From an uncultured virus (IMG/VR IMGVR_UViG_3300024359_000004) (taxonomy: Duplodnaviria > Heunggongvirae > Uroviricota > Caudoviricetes): a DNA stretch of 64,000 bases. Numbering within the stretch: the first letter of the stretch is position 1; every line of letters begins with the position of its first letter. Location of the stretch: IMG/VR virus record IMGVR_UViG_3300024359_000004. One strand, written 5' to 3'. Positions 245 to 42,221 of the stretch are shown here, one piece after another. Position numbers and translations under genes: made by a program. The notes beneath the pieces are model-generated. The model was not told the DNA's origin. It worked only from the letters and a program-made list of their open reading frames with translations, and ran no database searches.

Positions 245-390
245 CTTTGTTTTGGTTTATACATGAGTATTTGGTAGATAACAGATTCGAACTGTTTCGG
301 GTTCAGGCTTTTTTCCACCTTGAGTCGCACCACCCCTTTCTCCAATGTCTGTCAAGTCAAACTCTACCATTTACTCATCTTTGTTTTTTT

Positions 391-12695: not shown

Positions 12696-13655
12696 TTAAA
12701 CATCTAGTTTTTTCTGATTAACTAAATTTATTTGATAATTTGCTGGTAACTTAATAGTTTTAGCTTTTTCATTATTAATAAATTTAGCCCAAGCATATGT
12801 TAAATTTTTTAATAACTCTTCGTTAGTTAATTTATATGTCTTGTCAACCTTAGACTTAATAATTTTATTTCTAAGCGCTGTTACTGGTGAATCTGAACTT
12901 AAATTAATACCTTGACACAACATCTTTAAAAATTCTTCAGCTTTTTCTGGATTAATTTCAGTTAATAAGAAATGAAAGCCGCTAACAAGTGTTGGTGTTA
13001 TAATGTTAGAGTTGTTTTTTCTAACAGTGTTATAAAACTGGTAAGACTTATAAACTTTATCCTCACCTAATTCATAATAATAATCAATTAATTCACTATT
13101 ACTAAGTGTTCTGTGATGATGTCTATTAGCACTATATTTACCATGTTTAAATGCAAATATAAATTTAATCACAGCTGAAATATGTGTAGAATTAGCAACA
13201 CCTTCAATACTTAATACGTCAGAACCAGACCTAAGTGCTCCAGTGTCAATAGTTTTAAATGCTTCTAAACTTAGATTTGTAATCGTAAGGATTTGTAATG
13301 GAATACCAGTCTTAACAATTGCTGCTAACCTGTGTTGCCCATTATTAGTGTTACCATTAATATCAAAACCAATTGTCTCACCATTCATAATCCAATTTTC
13401 ATTCTCAATTTCTTTAGTTAAAAAATTGATATTATTTTTGTTTTGCTTTCTATTTCTATCATTATGGTCTTCTAGAATTTTGGCTGCTAATGATGGTGTG
13501 TAATTAACTAACATAATTTTAGTTAATGTACCCCCATAAGGCATGATAGTTGTTGGTGTTCCTTCCGCCTTGAATGATTCTAAATACGTTTCTAACGTGT
13601 CTAATTTTCTACTCACGTTTCTCTTTTTCTCTACTTGTGCTTTTGTTGTAAACAT
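12696..13655 (-). CDS. ParB/Srx-like N-terminal domain protein
   Basis: N.RNR, W..NGETI.FD..G...NGQHRL.AI, F.TIDTG..RS motifs. Confidence 0.7.
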   Translation of the reverse strand: MFTTKAQVEKKRNVSRKLDTLETYLESFKAEGTPTTIMPYGGTLTKIMLVNYTPSLAAKILEDHNDRNRKQNKNNINFLTKEIENENWIMNGETIGFDINGNTNNGQHRLAAIVKTGIPLQILTITNLSLEAFKTIDTGALRSGSDVLSIEGVANSTHISAVIKFIFAFKHGKYSANRHHHRTLSNSELIDYYYELGEDKVYKSYQFYNTVRKNNSNIITPTLVSGFHFLLTEINPEKAEEFLKMLCQGINLSSDSPVTALRNKIIKSKVDKTYKLTNEELLKNLTYAWAKFINNEKAKTIKLPANYQINLVNQKKLDV

Positions 13656-13809
13656 TTTCTTAAAATTTTAAATTAATAATTAAGACAAATATAAGAAGCT
13701 TTTTTAAATTATACAAGTAAAAAATAAAGTTTTTAGTTATAAAAATTTTTATTTTAGTGTAACCTAGTGTTAATCAGTTAGTTATGCTTAAAATTAATTG
13801 TAACTCGGA

Positions 13810-13841
13810 CAAAAAAAATGGGTAGTTAAAAAACCACCCAT
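13810..13841 (-). terminator. intrinsic terminator after the tRNA-Ala locus
   Basis: atgggtagtt...aaccacccat hairpin plus U-run; near copy of 12641-12673. Confidence 0.65.
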
Positions 13842-13847
13842 CTTTTG

Positions 13848-13887
13848 TGGAGAATATCGGAGTCGAACCGATGACCTTCTGCGTGCA
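13848..13887 (-). pseudogene. 3-prime half of disrupted tRNA-Ala(UGC)
   Basis: TGCACGCAGAAGGTCATCGGTTCGACTCCGATATTCTCCA: anticodon, T-arm and acceptor strand complementary to GGGGAAT at 14530-14536. Confidence 0.9.
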
Positions 13888-13888
13888 C

Positions 13889-14377
13889 CTAAATATCTAA
13901 TAACCCAGCATGATGTGCAGCATGACAATTCTTACATAATAATATACACCCCTCAATTTCTTTATCTATCCTTTCTAATGACCAACCTCTCAATGATGAG
14001 AAATTAGAATCTTTTTTATTTGGGTCTAGATGATGGATATCTAATGAAGGGTTGTATTTATTGTATCCACAAGATTTACATTCACCCCCAAGTTGTTTAA
14101 TGGCGTATTCCCTCTTCTCTTTACCAAGCTTAATCACTCTTTTATTGTGACATTTAGCACAAACTTGTTTATCGTTCCCATAAAAATTTTCTGGATTGTC
14201 TTCACCACATTGGTAGCAGTAATGGGTTTTATCTCTGGGTTTCTTTAGGTATCTGGTTGATAGTCCATATTTTTTTAACCAGTGTCTTACCGTTGTTTGT
14301 GATTTTCCAACCTTCTCAGCAATTTCTCTCTGAGAAAGTTTATTTTCTATCATTTCTATTAATACTTCTTTATCCAT
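13889..14377 (-). CDS. HNH (His-Me finger) endonuclease with N-terminal HTH and Zn-binding Cys pairs
   Basis: LSQREIAEKVGKSQTTVRHWLKK HTH; CYQC, CAKC, CKSC; LDIHHLDP...CILLCKNCH...H. Confidence 0.9.
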   Translation of the reverse strand: MDKEVLIEMIENKLSQREIAEKVGKSQTTVRHWLKKYGLSTRYLKKPRDKTHYCYQCGEDNPENFYGNDKQVCAKCHNKRVIKLGKEKREYAIKQLGGECKSCGYNKYNPSLDIHHLDPNKKDSNFSSLRGWSLERIDKEIEGCILLCKNCHAAHHAGLLDI

Positions 14378-14431
14378 ATTAATAAATATGACTCAGTTCT
14401 CTAAATAACAATTGTTTAGAGAAAAAAGTTG

Positions 14432-14504
14432 TGGAGCTACCCAGATTCGAACTGGGGACTGTTGCGTGCAAGGCAACTGTGTTAACCAACTATACCATAG
14501 CCCC
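14432..14504 (-). tRNA. tRNA-Ala(UGC), intact and divergent
   Basis: GGGGCTA/TAGCTCC acceptor with G3:U70, GTTGC-CTTGCAC-GCAAC anticodon arm, CCCAG-TTCGAAT-CTGGG T-arm; CCA not encoded. Confidence 0.92.
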
Positions 14505-14512
14505 ATAAAGAG

Positions 14513-14536
14513 TCTAGCCAACTGAGCTAATTCCCC
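14513..14536 (-). pseudogene. 5-prime fragment of disrupted tRNA-Ala
   Basis: GGGGAATTAGCTCAGTTGGCTAGA = acceptor strand plus D-arm start. Confidence 0.88.
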
Positions 14537-14549
14537 TTAATTAAGAATA

Positions 14550-14735
14550 TTATTTATCTGAAGATTCAGATTTTTTATTCTTATCTACTATTGACCATAT
14601 ACCACCAATAACAGCGATTAAACTACCAGACAATTCTGCCCATTCTGTAGCGTCAACAGTTCCTTTCATAATTAACATACCACCAATGAAGGTTAAACTA
14701 TGTCTTACGATTCCTAATACTTGTTCTAATGTCAT
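14550..14735 (-). CDS. putative holin (two TM helices)
   Basis: GIVRHSLTFIGG...IGGIWS, basic C-terminus; near lysozyme gene. Confidence 0.65.
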   Translation of the reverse strand: MTLEQVLGIVRHSLTFIGGMLIMKGTVDATEWAELSGSLIAVIGGIWSIVDKNKKSESSDK

Positions 14736-14777
14736 AATAATTTGTTTTTATATAAATACTGTTATAAAACTTAAAGT

Positions 14778-15014
14778 TTAATTTTTAGTACCATACATAC
14801 CTGGTTTTGGTCCACCTCTTTTAATATCGTTTAATAAATTCTGTTGCCTAGGTGTTAAATAAATTTTTTCACCACCGATAGAAATCCATTGATTTAATAT
14901 CTTTTTAGCAGTTTTGTTTGTTGTATTATTAAGCAATTGTTTAAGATAATTAATAGAAACCATCTTATTTTCACCAGTATTTTCCCTTAACAATTTTTTT
15001 ATTAAGTCTTTCAT
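14778..15014 (-). CDS. hypothetical protein with MKDLIKKLLRE leader
   Basis: ORF track; shared leader. Confidence 0.65.
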   Translation of the reverse strand: MKDLIKKLLRENTGENKMVSINYLKQLLNNTTNKTAKKILNQWISIGGEKIYLTPRQQNLLNDIKRGGPKPGMYGTKN

Positions 15015-34200: not shown

Positions 34201-34387
34201 AATAAATCTTTTTTTAATTTTTTTTTATTTATTCTTAAATATACTTAATATATTTTTTTAGTAAACCCCTAAACAACAAAAAACCCACAAAAAGTGGGTT
34301 TTTATTAAAGTTTCCAATTTAGCGAAAATAAATTAGAACCCTTTCAGGGATTTTGTTTGTACTCAAAAAGTACAAAAAAGTTAATTG

Positions 34388-34461
34388 CGGTTCGGACGGG
34401 ATTCGAACCCGCGACCCCATGCGTGACAGGCATGTATTCTAACCAGCTGAACTACCGAACC
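34388..34461 (-). tRNA. tRNA-Asp(GUC)
   Basis: GGTTCGG...CATGC-CTGTCAC-GCATG...GGTTCGAATCC...CCGAACCG. Confidence 0.95.
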
Positions 34462-34489
34462 AATCTTTTAAAAGTACAGAGTTTTTTTG

Positions 34490-34562
34490 TTGTCCCTGGA
34501 GGGCTCGAACCTCCACTCTTCTGAACCAAAATCAGACGTGTTGCCAGTTACACCAAGGGACA
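34490..34562 (-). tRNA. tRNA-Gln(UUG)
   Basis: TGTCCCT...TCTGA-TTTTGGT-TCAGA...GGTTCGAGCC...AGGGACAA. Confidence 0.93.
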
Positions 34563-34575
34563 AAAAACGACCTAG

Positions 34576-34647
34576 CAGCCCATAACAGAATCGAACTGTT
34601 GTTTCTAGGATGAAAACCTAGCGTCCTAACCACTAGACGAATGGGCC
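34576..34647 (-). tRNA. tRNA-Glu(UUC)
   Basis: GGCCCAT...CTAGG-TTTTCAT-CCTAG...AACAG-TTCGATT-CTGTT-ATGGGCTG. Confidence 0.92.
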
Positions 34648-34649
34648 AA

Positions 34650-35023
34650 TGGTGGAGCAATAGAGAGTCGAACTCTAGTCTTACTTACTCATAAAGAGCT
34701 TTCTACATGCTTATCTGGTTTCTAATCCCAGCAAAGTTTAACAGTTCCCTTATTTTAGTAGTTTGTTTTACTGATAACTAATCTTCTACCCTTATTTTAG
34801 CACCTTTGGTTGGTCGTTCCTGTGGGTTTCCCCAGTGCATTACTCTATTAGGCGAATGCTACCTCTCCAGCAACTACTTCTACAGAAGCAGTGTCAAGGA
34901 AGTTTTCATCGATGTCAAATTCGTTTCCATCTAAAAAAAAATGATAGGTAATTAAAGTGTTTCCAATCTAACACTGCATGCTTACTAATCACGACTATAA
35001 GTAATCAATAGCCATTTTGCCCC
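34650..35023 (-). ncRNA. ssrA: tmRNA
   Basis: GGGGCAA/TTGCTCCACCA acceptor with G3:U, T-arm TAGAG-TTCGACT-CTCTA, 374 nt, internal tag frame 34928-34851 ending AFA**. Confidence 0.9.
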
Positions 35024-40769: not shown

Positions 40770-42221
40770 TTACATACTTACCTTATCATATCTTTCACTA
40801 TCAATAACATCCATCATAATACTATATGGTGTAAATTCATTACCAGATAACAATGCAGTTAATATAGCTGGGCTAAACCCACTAACAAGTGCCGTACCTT
40901 GCTTGTCAAAACTAACTGGTGAGTTATCTTGTCTTGATTGAATATTCCAATATACAATTTTCGGCATATTAAAACCAGCATCTTTGTACATTGTTTCAAT
41001 CATTTTCTGTGCTGTTGGGTTCCAAACTGAGTTGTTACCCCAACCTTTAGCTGTAGCTGAATTGAACTCCATATCAGAAAGTATTAAGATAGTTGTTGGC
41101 ATATCTTCTTCAGATAAATTACCCTCAACAGCCTTTTGTAATAACACCTTGAATGTTTCTTCAAGGTTTGTTGAACCACCCCAATCTGCTGAAGATAGTT
41201 GGTTATATCTATCAACTAAATCACCTTTTAAGTATTCTAACTTTGGTGAACTTGAGAATGTAAAGAACGCATCTTTAAATGGTCCTTCATTCCTTTCTGA
41301 GATATACAACCCTAGAGATATTGCAACATCCATACATGTTAAGTTTGGATTATTCCCAGCTGGCACTCCCATAGAACCAGAAACATCAACTACAGGTAAT
41401 ATTCTTTCTTTAGAACCTTCCATATAGTTTGGTAATGATTTCCATTGCTCTGTAGCACCTTCACTGTTACCATGTTCTAAGTTCTTTGTGATATCATAAG
41501 GATATACAGCACCAGTATTAATCTTAGCCTCACCTTTCTTTAATGATTCTAGATAAGTGTTGAACCCTTTAGAGTCATTTCTATTAAAAGCTGTCATATA
41601 ATCAGACATAGCTTTTGATGGTACATGTGAATAGTTAATATTCTCAAATCTCTTAGAACACATTAACTGTTCAACAGTGTTTGATAATTCAGCTAATAAC
41701 TTTCTATACGCTTTTGGTTCTAAACCTAAATACTTTCTAATAACTGATGCCCATCTCTTCTTTTCTCTATTCTTAGTATTACCTCTTGGTAACCATTTAG
41801 CACAAAGACCATCTTTACCTTCTAATGCACAAGCTATCTCACCTAAGACATCTTTCTCTAATCTAGTACCGATTAAAAGTAACATGTCATCCCATCTACC
41901 GTACTCTGGAATAAGACCAATGTTTTTCTTTAGAGTGTCTGGTTTAGTTTTAGCTAAATAAGTTAATATTTCTCTAAATGTCTTTCTTTCACCAGCACCA
42001 CCTCTGATGTCTCTACACCAAAAAAGAATTTTCATAGCTGTTAATGGGTCTTCTCCAAATGCTTTTGAGAAAACACTAATCTTTCTTTTCTTATCTTCAC
42101 CTCTTAGGGCTCCGATTTTGAAGAATAAGTCAACACATATATTAAGTGATGTTGAGTTGCTTGCCATTCCGTTCTCAGTTTGAGAATCATTAGTCAATAA
42201 AGTGTCGATTAATTTACCCAT
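40770..42221 (-). CDS. DUF2828-like helical plus vWA protein (Ro60/TROVE-like architecture)
   Basis: TENG...ST...DLFF, RDIRGG.GER, YGRWDD, AKWLPR, MIDAS DVSGSM, LSDMEF, SGFSP. Confidence 0.85.
   Translation of the reverse strand: MGKLIDTLLTNDSQTENGMASNSTSLNICVDLFFKIGALRGEDKKRKISVFSKAFGEDPLTAMKILFWCRDIRGGAGERKTFREILTYLAKTKPDTLKKNIGLIPEYGRWDDMLLLIGTRLEKDVLGEIACALEGKDGLCAKWLPRGNTKNREKKRWASVIRKYLGLEPKAYRKLLAELSNTVEQLMCSKRFENINYSHVPSKAMSDYMTAFNRNDSKGFNTYLESLKKGEAKINTGAVYPYDITKNLEHGNSEGATEQWKSLPNYMEGSKERILPVVDVSGSMGVPAGNNPNLTCMDVAISLGLYISERNEGPFKDAFFTFSSSPKLEYLKGDLVDRYNQLSSADWGGSTNLEETFKVLLQKAVEGNLSEEDMPTTILILSDMEFNSATAKGWGNNSVWNPTAQKMIETMYKDAGFNMPKIVYWNIQSRQDNSPVSFDKQGTALVSGFSPAILTALLSGNEFTPYSIMMDVIDSERYDKVSM

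What the first reader, a model, noticed from the sequence alone, without database searches (positions are those of the whole stretch)
13848..14536. HNH cassette that destroys a tRNA-Ala gene and supplies its own divergent replacement
Seen on the minus strand, in order: tRNA-Ala 5-prime piece (GGGGAATTAGCTCAGTTGGCTAGA), 8 nt, a complete but different tRNA-Ala(UGC), a hairpin, the HNH gene, then one base after its stop the old 3-prime half starting exactly at the anticodon TGC. The two fragments pair in the acceptor stem (GGGGAAT/ATTCTCC). About 10 nt of the old D/anticodon arm are lost or eroded. The new tRNA keeps the anticodon loop and G3:U70 but differs in every stem. Inference: an intronless homing element that cuts tRNA-Ala near the anticodon and stays harmless by carrying a cleavage-resistant isoacceptor. 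This differs from integrase elements, which duplicate only a tRNA 3-prime end, and from self-splicing introns.
Basis: partly seen in the sequence, partly recalled or inferred. Interest (0 to 1): 0.9.

Follow-up and report, generated by a model that had tools for sequence, protein, structure and literature searches.

The report
Nuclease-plus-tRNA cassette splits phage tRNA-Ala
A selfish DNA-cutting-enzyme gene that travels with its own working alanine tRNA gene has been copied into the middle of a marine phage's original alanine tRNA gene, and sibling phages still show the untouched gene.

Summary
On the minus strand the order is: a 24-nt 5' piece of a tRNA-Ala(UGC) gene, 8 nt, a complete but divergent tRNA-Ala(UGC), a hairpin, a 162-aa HTH/zinc-finger/HNH ORF, 1 nt, then the 40-nt 3' piece and its terminator.

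Sibling marine phages give the empty site. L061 has the same flanking genes, and L063 matches both pieces exactly. In the window, 625 bp replace exactly 10 nt (tRNA positions 24-33). Independent assemblies bridge both junctions, so this is not a misassembly.

The old allele is the host-type (Bacteroidota) tRNA-Ala. The carried allele also occurs alone, without HNH, at the same locus in other siblings. That locus also shows chimeras, a 13-nt deletion at the same spot, and an unrelated HNH insertion.

The HNH family is strongly tied to tRNA genes: 59 of 78 viral loci have a tRNA within 100 nt. It splits tRNA-Pro in E. coli Vequintavirus phages, where filled and empty alleles are both found. It splits tRNA-Arg in another viral contig, again with a same-anticodon tRNA inside.

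The best reading is a free-standing homing endonuclease linked to an allele of its own target. Cleavage and resistance are inferred, not shown. SegB of T4 is the closest known system, so this is a new variant of a known kind. This scan has noted the same theme before on other DNA.

The parts
14550..14735 (-). Holin gene, the upstream neighbour; it marks the locus in sibling phages
   Evidence: Pfam PF23987 Phage_holin_10, 54.3 bits. Used to fetch 19 related metagenome loci.
14513..14536 (-). 5' piece (positions 1-23) of the resident, host-type tRNA-Ala(UGC) gene
   Evidence: Identical to the first 24 nt of the intact tRNA-Ala in L063. The homology to L061 ends at 14513.
13888..14512 (-). The 625-bp insert that replaces 10 nt of the old gene
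   Evidence: BLAST of the window against L061 gives 92.2% over 1990 nt up to 14513 and 96.3% over 1200 nt from 13887. L061 has 10 nt between these points.
14505..14512 (-). 8-nt junction filler CTCTTTAT of unknown origin
   Evidence: Sequence. It matches neither the old tRNA nor the holin-tRNA spacer of the siblings.
14431..14504 (-). Carried, complete tRNA-Ala(UGC) (the N allele)
   Evidence: ARAGORN. Rfam 61.3 bits. Cloverleaf with a weak D arm. About 88% identical to the N alleles that stand alone in L057 and L062.
14391..14429 (-). Hairpin between the carried tRNA and the HNH gene
   Evidence: -9.9 kcal/mol, z -2.47. The closest HNH relatives have the same tRNA-hairpin-HNH order.
13889..14377 (-). 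HTH / zinc-finger / HNH endonuclease ORF, 162 aa
   Evidence: phrog_2255 HNH endonuclease, E 9.4e-28. HTH families match at the N terminus; Pfam HNH scores 18.3 bits, below its 21.4 cut-off. C100, C103, H115, H116, C148, N150, C151, H152 and H156 are invariant in 13 relatives.
13848..13887 (-). 3' piece (positions 34-73) of the resident tRNA-Ala gene, starting at the anticodon TGC
   Evidence: Identical to L063. A partial hit of the Rfam tmRNA model (its tRNA-like end) overlaps it.
13810..13849 (-). Native terminator of the old tRNA gene
   Evidence: -19.3 kcal/mol, z -5.4. The same hairpin follows the intact tRNA in L061.
12696..13655 (-). Downstream neighbour, a 319-aa ORF of unknown function
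   Evidence: phrog_5931. 95% identical protein downstream of the empty site in L061.

Best explanation
This is a free-standing HNH homing-endonuclease gene physically linked to a divergent allele of its own target. The cassette is tRNA-Ala(UGC) allele N, a hairpin, and an HTH/zinc-finger/HNH ORF. It was copied into the phage's resident, host-like tRNA-Ala(UGC) gene (allele O). It replaced positions 24-33, which are the 3' strand of the D stem, the 5' strand of the anticodon stem and the start of the loop.

Shown: the insertion itself, the empty site, and the intactness of the carried tRNA and of the ORF.

Inferred: (a) the nuclease, made from a co-infecting donor, cut allele O in the anticodon-stem region; (b) the break lost about 10 nt and was repaired by copying the nuclease gene with its linked tRNA, by joining at or near the break rather than by crossing over in the flanks, which left both halves of O in place; (c) allele N differs at the cut or recognition site and is not cut, so the carrier is immune and still encodes a tRNA-Ala; (d) the O halves now serve as short homology arms, so the cassette can home into any O-type gene.
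For: Insertion and empty site: L061 has the same holin, lysozyme and downstream ORF at 93-95% protein identity, with an intact tRNA-Ala. L063 equals both fragments exactly. 625 bp stand in place of 10 nt.

Not an artefact: two IMG/VR contigs and L055 carry the identical cassette. A 714-nt contig of run X11 covers 13858-14571 with 0 differences, and X13 tiles the cassette with two overlapping contigs.

The nuclease looks intact: phrog_2255, E 9.4e-28, with the HH..N..H and Cys motifs invariant.

Same family, same site, other tRNAs:
- In Vequintavirus phage 241Ecol014PP, an HNH 58% identical over 112 aa sits in tRNA-Pro. 353 bp replace 7 nt (positions 25-31) relative to phage A51.2. 14 phage records carry the filled form.
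- In L043, an HNH (39% identical over 88 aa, E 2e-18) and a complete tRNA-Arg(UCU) lie between two halves of another tRNA-Arg(UCU). The acceptor strands of those halves pair 7 of 7.
- My split-tRNA scan gave 6 candidates in 27 sequences against 0-1 in each of 20 shuffles.

tRNA linkage: 59 of 78 non-self viral loci have a tRNA within 100 nt of the HNH, 24 of them within 10 nt (loci not de-replicated). By comparison, about 2% of the window lies that close to a tRNA.

The closest relatives (53-59% identical) show the same tRNA-hairpin-HNH order.

Family members also lie next to tRNA genes that carry a group I intron in the anticodon loop: L098 and L104 at 74-76 bits, L125 at 71.5 bits. This is the region where the split-gene 3' junctions lie.

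The locus in siblings looks like a record of nuclease activity:
- N alone, with O-type flanks (L057, L062).
- N/O chimeras that no longer score as tRNA (L056, L060).
- A 13-nt deletion with the same left junction as the window (L058).
Against: - No cleavage data exist.
- Pfam HNH is below its gathering score (18.3 against 21.4).
- No donor arrangement (N plus HNH without O halves) was found. The N tRNA of the window occurs only in this phage's own contigs.
- The Vequintavirus insert and the unrelated HNH insert in L059 carry no replacement tRNA. A carried tRNA is therefore not needed for the insertion to persist.
- N alleles exist without HNH, so N could have arisen for other reasons.
- A family-wide test was negative. 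HNH-adjacent tRNAs are not poorer in the canonical D-arm motifs than other tRNAs of the same loci (14 of 51 against 46 of 209, p 0.46; 7 of 51 against 25 of 209, p 0.81).
- L058 rests on one contig.
Confidence: 0.78

Rival explanations
1. The tRNA is linked to the HNH gene mainly for expression, not for immunity or compensation. The nuclease gene would ride on a tRNA promoter and tRNA processing, and the same-anticodon tRNA inside the split is a by-product of co-conversion.
For: The SegB paper proposes control of nuclease expression through processing of the tRNA transcript, and says T5 HNH genes lie in the tRNA cluster too (PMC2330249, passages read). HNH genes of this family abut tRNAs of at least 18 anticodons. 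No convincing separate promoter was found: 6 promoter-like sites against 5.9 expected.
Against: In both cassettes that carry a tRNA (the window and L043), that tRNA has the same anticodon as the gene it splits. A pure expression module would not predict this. In L043 and L034/L035 the HNH is antisense to the tRNA, so it cannot be co-transcribed with it.
Confidence: 0.12
2. The insertion came from nuclease-independent illegitimate recombination. tRNA genes would be general recombination hot spots in phage genomes, and the HNH gene is a passenger.
For: tRNA arrays near these genes are full of debris and duplicates: L037 has orphan T arms and L121 has odd acceptor pairings. An unrelated HNH family (phrog_1271) is also inserted in the same tRNA-Ala in L059, at other positions (18/51).
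Against: Three independent inserts of one HNH family sit in three different tRNAs in unrelated phages. All replace the same small stretch: positions 24-33, 25-31 and about 22-32. The passenger in L059 is again a nuclease gene.
Confidence: 0.07
3. The layout is an assembly chimera of two tRNA-Ala-bearing genomes.
For: The community holds many other tRNA-Ala genes that share k-mers with the fragments. Contigs join 13877 to 14513 with 20-21 other letters between.
Against: Contigs from separate runs and samples cover both junctions without a difference. Three further assemblies are identical. The flanks are collinear with L061.
Confidence: 0.01

Closest known systems
Phage T4 SegB (GIY-YIG free-standing homing endonuclease in the tRNA gene cluster; PMC2330249, abstract and passages read; PMC13096335, abstract and section 10 read)
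   Same: A free-standing nuclease gene living among phage tRNA genes. It cuts inside tRNA genes of phages that lack it and is inherited together with neighbouring tRNA genes. SegB homologues are statistically associated with tRNAs.
   Different: SegB has a different fold (GIY-YIG, not HNH). It recognises the T-arm motif, not the D/anticodon-stem region inferred here. It lies between genes and replaces the rival's region by homologous recombination. It has not been described, in what I read, as lying inside a split tRNA gene with a same-anticodon copy.
[quoted passage not shown]
   Same: HNH-type nuclease ORFs located in a phage tRNA cluster.
   Different: I did not see the primary paper. No split target with a carried allele is mentioned in the passage I read. 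Relatedness to this family was not tested.
Collaborative or trans homing: a free-standing nuclease next to an intron-bearing gene (F-CphI with psbA; MobE with I-TevIII). The papers appeared in the search listing and were not read; the content is recalled.
   Same: The nuclease is protected because the linked allele of the target is interrupted or altered at the cut site. Members of this HNH family do lie next to tRNA genes with a group I intron in the anticodon loop.
   Different: In the window no ribozyme is present: no Rfam intron hit at E up to 10. The target is destroyed, not spliced, and function is supplied by a second gene copy.
Integrase-borne islands at tRNA genes
   Same: A tRNA gene is the landing site, and a piece of tRNA is left beside the insert.
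   Different: Those duplicate only the tRNA 3' end and keep the gene intact. Here both halves remain, 10 nt are lost, and no integrase lies in the 625-bp insert.
Synthetic 'cleave and rescue' gene drives (recalled from my own knowledge, no call)
   Same: A nuclease aimed at a gene, plus a recoded, uncuttable copy of that gene, in one cassette.
   Different: That design is engineered and targets essential genes. Here the target is an accessory phage tRNA, and resistance of the carried copy is untested.

Membership tests
HNH (His-Me finger) endonuclease | beta-beta-alpha-metal motif with catalytic His, Asn and His, and zinc-binding Cys pairs | tested here: met
   phrog_2255 HNH endonuclease, E 9.4e-28. 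H115, H116, N150, H152, H156 and four Cys are invariant in 13 relatives. The Pfam HNH model alone scores below its cut-off, 18.3 against 21.4 bits.
Homing endonuclease gene | Presence/absence polymorphism at the same locus in close relatives, with a precise empty site | tested here: met
   L061 and L063 are empty; the window and L055 are filled. The same holds for the 58%-identical gene in Vequintavirus phages.
Homing endonuclease gene | Site-specific cleavage of the empty allele, with the filled or linked allele uncut | not testable with these tools
   There is only indirect support: three inserts at the same tRNA positions and a deletion at that spot in L058.
Homing endonuclease gene | Co-conversion of flanking markers | tested here: inconclusive
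   N/O chimeric alleles occur in L056 and L060, and N stands alone with O-type flanks in L057 and L062. These fit conversion tracts, but the direction and cause are not shown.
Free-standing (intronless) homing as in T4 Seg/Mob | Nuclease gene lies between genes; the rival allele is replaced by homologous recombination in the flanks | tested here: not met
   The gene lies inside its target, and both halves of the target remain. The closest relatives L026-L030 do have the intergenic layout.
Group I intron in a tRNA gene | Ribozyme core; exons that rejoin to a full tRNA | tested here: not met
   No Intron_gpI hit in 13500-14900 at E up to 10. 10 nt of the tRNA are absent. Real intron-bearing tRNAs next to relatives were detected by the same tool.
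Integrase-mediated island at a tRNA gene | Integrase gene and a direct repeat of the tRNA 3' end, with the tRNA kept intact | tested here: not met
   The only ORF of any length in the insert is the HNH. A 5' piece is also left, and the old gene is broken.

The most novel reading that the evidence does not exclude
The cassette is a natural 'cut-and-rescue' drive for tRNA genes. The nuclease would cut the host-type tRNA-Ala(UGC) gene wherever it occurs, in rival phages and possibly in the copies of the Flavobacteriia host. The recoded tRNA-Ala travelling with it would both immunise the carrier and replace the destroyed function. The same HNH family would do this in modular fashion for many tRNA identities, using a divergent allele, a group I intron or nothing at all as the shield.
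Probability: 0.3. Interest if true: 0.85.

Novelty: new variant of a known kind. Interest (0 to 1): 0.65.

Why it matters
Homing endonuclease genes normally avoid harm in one of two ways. They sit between genes, or they hide in self-splicing introns or inteins. Here a third way is visible: sit inside the target gene and bring a spare, altered copy of it.

The marine phage population around this window preserves most stages side by side. These are the intact target, the filled target, the altered allele alone, chimeras, a deletion scar and a second nuclease in the same gene. That makes the life cycle of such an element directly testable.

The target equals the common tRNA-Ala(UGC) of Bacteroidota apart from 3 nt. 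This raises the question of whether the nuclease also acts on host DNA.

The finding would also help explain why phage tRNA arrays are so variable and so full of duplicates and pseudo-tRNAs. It would also add an HNH family that may read a conserved part of tRNA genes.

Tried and rejected
- Search for the donor form. The N tRNA pattern was found only in this phage's own two IMG/VR contigs. No N+HNH without O halves was seen among the 19 metagenome loci.
- Neighbours as bait in viral contigs. The 319-aa ORF gave only distant, non-syntenic relatives. The holin gave one 62% relative (L054) with no tRNA and another HNH-type ORF. The metagenome scan was needed to find the empty sites.
- Self-BLAST of tRNAs against their loci did not find fragments, because the old and new alleles are too different. 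Rfam at E up to 1 also did not flag halves. A structure-based scan written for the purpose did find them.
- The idea that the nuclease reads the canonical D arm, and that linked tRNAs have lost it, is not supported family-wide.
- An intact form of the old tRNA-Arg of L043 was not found in viral contigs with my pattern.
- The promoter scan was uninformative: 6 sites against 5.9 expected. The terminator scan found none, although folding shows a strong hairpin followed by a U run.
- RNA-library contigs cover the HNH and the carried tRNA (X15 13851-14513; X16 13848-14368). Contigs cannot show transcription.
- One X15 contig joins 14533 to 14500 and lacks the old 5' piece. It begins with adapter-like letters, so I relied instead on L057 and L062 for the 'N alone' form.
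- The window's own assembly is not held. The nearest record, G001, is an identical 18.9-kb fragment. Whether the phage has another tRNA-Ala outside the window is therefore unknown.
- HNH profile in 401 Flavobacteriales genomes: 5 have a match. Two (L275, L276) show the HNH abutting tRNA-Arg(UCU). The scan found no split tRNA there.
- Structure prediction and complex prediction were not used.

Full report
**What is there.** Read on the minus strand, the region holds the following parts in order:
- the end of a holin gene (Pfam Phage_holin_10);
- 24 nt equal to positions 1-23 of a tRNA-Ala (14536..14513);
- 8 nt, CTCTTTAT;
- a complete tRNA-Ala(UGC) at 14504..14431 (ARAGORN; Rfam 61.3 bits);
- a hairpin;
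- a 162-aa ORF at 14377..13889;
- one G;
- 40 nt equal to positions 34-73 of a tRNA-Ala (13887..13848);
- a strong terminator hairpin.

The ORF has an N-terminal helix-turn-helix and a C-terminal zinc-finger/HNH domain. Pfam HTH families match at E about 1e-5 to 1e-6, and Pfam HNH scores 18.3 bits, below its cut-off. The ORF matches phrog_2255 'HNH endonuclease' at E 9.4e-28. The HH..N..H and Cys residues are invariant in 13 relatives. No group I intron or other Rfam family explains the insert.

**The two pieces are halves of a real gene, and the empty site exists.** A pattern made of both pieces found 8 viral contigs with an intact tRNA-Ala.

Using the holin as bait in metagenome contigs gave 19 related loci. 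L061 has the same lysozyme, 78-aa ORF and downstream 319-aa ORF at 90-95% protein identity. It carries an intact tRNA-Ala followed by the same terminator.

BLAST shows homology to L061 running up to window 14513 and resuming at 13887. L061 has 10 nt where the window has 625. L063 holds an intact gene identical to both pieces, with GCGTCTGCCT between them. So the insert replaced positions 24-33.

**Not an artefact.**
- Two IMG/VR contigs from different samples, and L055, carry the identical cassette.
- 14 DNA runs of seawater hold 94-98% of the sampled words.
- A 714-nt contig of run X11 spans 13858-14571 without a difference, and X13 tiles the cassette with two overlapping contigs.
- The other contigs that 'skip' the insert have 20-21 different letters in between. 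They are intact tRNA-Ala genes of other organisms.

**What the old and new alleles are.** The old allele (O) is the ordinary tRNA-Ala(UGC) of Bacteroidota. By record title, most are Flavobacteriales and other Bacteroidota. 110 of the 120 have one variant that differs from the phage's O allele at 3 positions, and none of the 120 equals it exactly. This suggests a Flavobacteriia-type host and a host-derived phage tRNA.

The carried allele (N) differs from O in all four stems and keeps the anticodon loop and G3:U70. N is not exotic. In the siblings L057 and L062, an allele about 88% identical to it stands alone, exactly where O stands in L058 and L063. It has the same spacer and the same terminator, and no HNH. 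By my reading of the two sequences printed, most differences between the two N forms keep base pairs. Rfam scores are 68.6-71.3 bits for O alleles and 52.4-61.3 bits for N alleles.

**The locus is a battlefield.** Besides O intact (L061, L063, L069), N alone (L057, L062) and the filled form (the window, L055), three other states occur:
- L056 and L060 carry a chimera: N-like up to the T loop, O-like after it. It no longer scores as a tRNA.
- L058 has O with 13 nt (positions 24-36) deleted. Its left junction is the same as the window's. This rests on one contig.
- L059 has O interrupted between positions 18 and about 51 by a different nuclease gene of 254 aa (phrog_1271 HNH endonuclease, E 1.5e-11), with no replacement tRNA.

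The remaining loci have no tRNA after the holin (L066, L067, L068, L072, L071), have it further away (L064, L065), have another gene there (L070), or end too early (L073).

**The HNH family.** DNA-level matches to the ORF occur in Yersinia jumbo phages, in E. coli Vequintavirus phages, and in records labelled Campylobacter phage (29 records). All three annotated contexts I opened lie against tRNA genes. Among 23 non-self IMG/VR loci found with the protein, most lie in tRNA arrays.

With a profile of 13 relatives, 516 viral stretches encode a relative. Of the best 80, 78 are not this phage. Their distance to the nearest tRNA is as follows (not de-replicated):

| Distance from HNH to nearest tRNA | Loci (of 78) |
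|---|---|
| within 10 nt | 24 |
| 11-100 nt | 35 |
| 101-300 nt | 7 |
| further than 300 nt | 2 |
| no tRNA within the 1.5-kb flanks | 10 |

In the window itself only about 2% of positions lie that close to a tRNA. The neighbours have at least 18 different anticodons. Arg(UCU) is the commonest with 18 loci and Asn(GUU) follows with 12. The closest relatives (53-59% identity; L026-L030, L076) have the order tRNA-Thr, hairpin, HNH, then tRNA-Arg, with no split gene.

**Other split genes.**

1. Phage 241Ecol014PP has an HNH 58% identical over 112 aa (E 5e-53). It lacks the HTH part. It lies inside tRNA-Pro(UGG). Against phage A51.2, where the gene is annotated intact, 353 bp replace 7 nt, positions 25-31. 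The ORF's stop lies one base before the junction, as in the window. 14 phage records have the filled form, and many have the empty one. No tRNA-Pro is carried.

2. In L043 the order on the tRNA strand is:
   - a 21-nt 5' piece;
   - 3-4 nt;
   - a complete tRNA-Arg(UCU);
   - an HNH gene in antisense, whose stop abuts the tRNA's 3' end;
   - a 40-nt 3' piece that starts in the anticodon loop.

   The acceptor strands of the two pieces pair 7 of 7. This HNH is 39% identical over 88 aa. I found no intact copy of that old gene.

My scan for such splits gave 6 candidates in 27 sequences, against 0 or 1 per set in 20 shuffles. Three of the six enclose an HNH. Among the 80 profile loci, only the window's own contigs showed a split enclosing the HNH. 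The layout is therefore uncommon.

**Introns at the same place.** The scan also picked up tRNA genes with about 200-nt inserts beside family members. Rfam calls these group I introns: L098 and L104 at 74-76 bits, and L125 at 71.5 bits. By sequence they sit in the anticodon loop of a tRNA-Arg(UCU), tail to tail with the HNH. This matches the published idea of a free-standing nuclease protected by an intron in the linked target. The relevant papers appeared only in a search listing, and their content is recalled.

**How it most likely works.** The insertion is shown. The rest is inferred as follows.
- The nuclease cuts tRNA genes in the stretch between the D stem and the anticodon loop.
- Its own genome is safe because the linked allele is altered there (N), interrupted (intron) or already destroyed (split gene).
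- In a mixed infection the cut O allele was repaired from the donor.
- Because both halves of O remain and 10 nt are gone, the joints were made at the processed break, not in the flanks.
- From then on the halves can act as homology arms for ordinary homing into other O alleles.

Whether the carried tRNA is selected as compensation, or merely hitch-hikes as the marker nearest to the nuclease gene, is open. In its favour, the tRNA has the same anticodon as the target in both tRNA-carrying cassettes. Against it, two inserts persist without one.

A test of one specific idea failed: linked tRNAs have not, as a class, lost the canonical D-arm sequence.

**Comparison with what is known.** T4 SegB is the nearest system. 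It is a free-standing GIY-YIG nuclease in the tRNA cluster that cuts within tRNA genes at the T-arm motif. It drives inheritance of itself and of neighbouring tRNA genes (PMC2330249, abstract and passages read). SegB homologues are enriched near tRNAs and can amplify tRNA genes (PMC13096335, abstract and section 10 read). T5 HNH genes also lie in the tRNA cluster, as cited in PMC2330249.

Three things differ here: the HNH family, the site in the tRNA, and above all the position inside the target together with a same-anticodon copy.

Five full-text searches found no paper describing a phage tRNA gene split by a nuclease gene that carries a replacement. Subscription-only papers are not covered by that library.

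Earlier notes of this scan describe the same theme on other DNA: tRNA-Arg in coliphages, tRNA-Asp in a large phage, tRNA-Pro and tRNA-Arg in bacteria, and an HNH beside an intron-split tRNA-Asn. I saw these after my own analysis and did not re-examine their DNA.

**Verdict.** The interpretation passed all of its computational tests, but its biochemical core is untested. It is a new variant of a known kind and of good interest.

Noticed in passing
window 34387-35023 (-): The phage carries a tmRNA gene (tag peptide GNEFDIDENFLDTASVEVVAGEVAFA) directly upstream of a tRNA-Glu, tRNA-Gln, tRNA-Asp cluster.
   Followed up: no
window about 270-390 (-): A tRNA-like element of about 105 nt has a perfect T arm (AACAG-TTCGAAT-CTGTT) and acceptor strands pairing 6 of 7. 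ARAGORN does not call it. It may be an odd long-arm tRNA or another relic.
   Followed up: partly
L059 965-1912 (metagenome sibling of this locus): A different nuclease gene (254 aa, phrog_1271 HNH endonuclease) sits in the same tRNA-Ala between positions 18 and about 51. It carries no replacement tRNA.
   Followed up: partly
L098 2030-2312 (-), L104 2030-2311 (-), L115 2058-2336 (-), L125 1031-1306 (-): These are phage tRNA genes interrupted by group I introns of about 200 nt (Rfam 71-76 bits for three of the four). They lie next to HNH genes of this family. L115 is similar in sequence but was not reported by Rfam.
   Followed up: partly
L041 537-653 and 940-1056 (also in L040): Two 117-nt tRNA-like genes carry an insert of about 44 nt after the D arm or anticodon stem. 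One scores 42.9 bits as a tRNA. The nature of the insert is unknown.
   Followed up: no
L037 2250-2700: A stretch downstream of an HNH gene is full of tRNA debris. It holds a 91-nt tRNA-Asn with an insert, two orphan T arm plus acceptor pieces, a free 5' half, and a weak Y-RNA-like (YrlA) hit.
   Followed up: partly
L033 1-188: A manA RNA motif (87.7 bits) lies just upstream of an HNH relative.
   Followed up: no
L022 82-924 (-) (Escherichia phage 241Ecol014PP): A near-threshold group I intron hit (48.6 bits against a cut-off of 50) spans the annotated 'recombination endonuclease VII' gene near the DNA packaging gene.
   Followed up: no
window 40770-42221 (-): A 483-aa protein matches phrog_850 'RNA-binding protein' at E 9e-153. 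Most other large ORFs of the window have no PHROG match.
   Followed up: no
L275 and L276 (two Flavobacteriales genomes), 1360-1940: An HNH relative lies between tRNA-Pro and an antisense tRNA-Arg(UCU) that abuts its 3' end. This is the same unit as in viral loci L034 and L043, but here it is in bacterial assemblies. In L275 the frame has two stops.
   Followed up: partly
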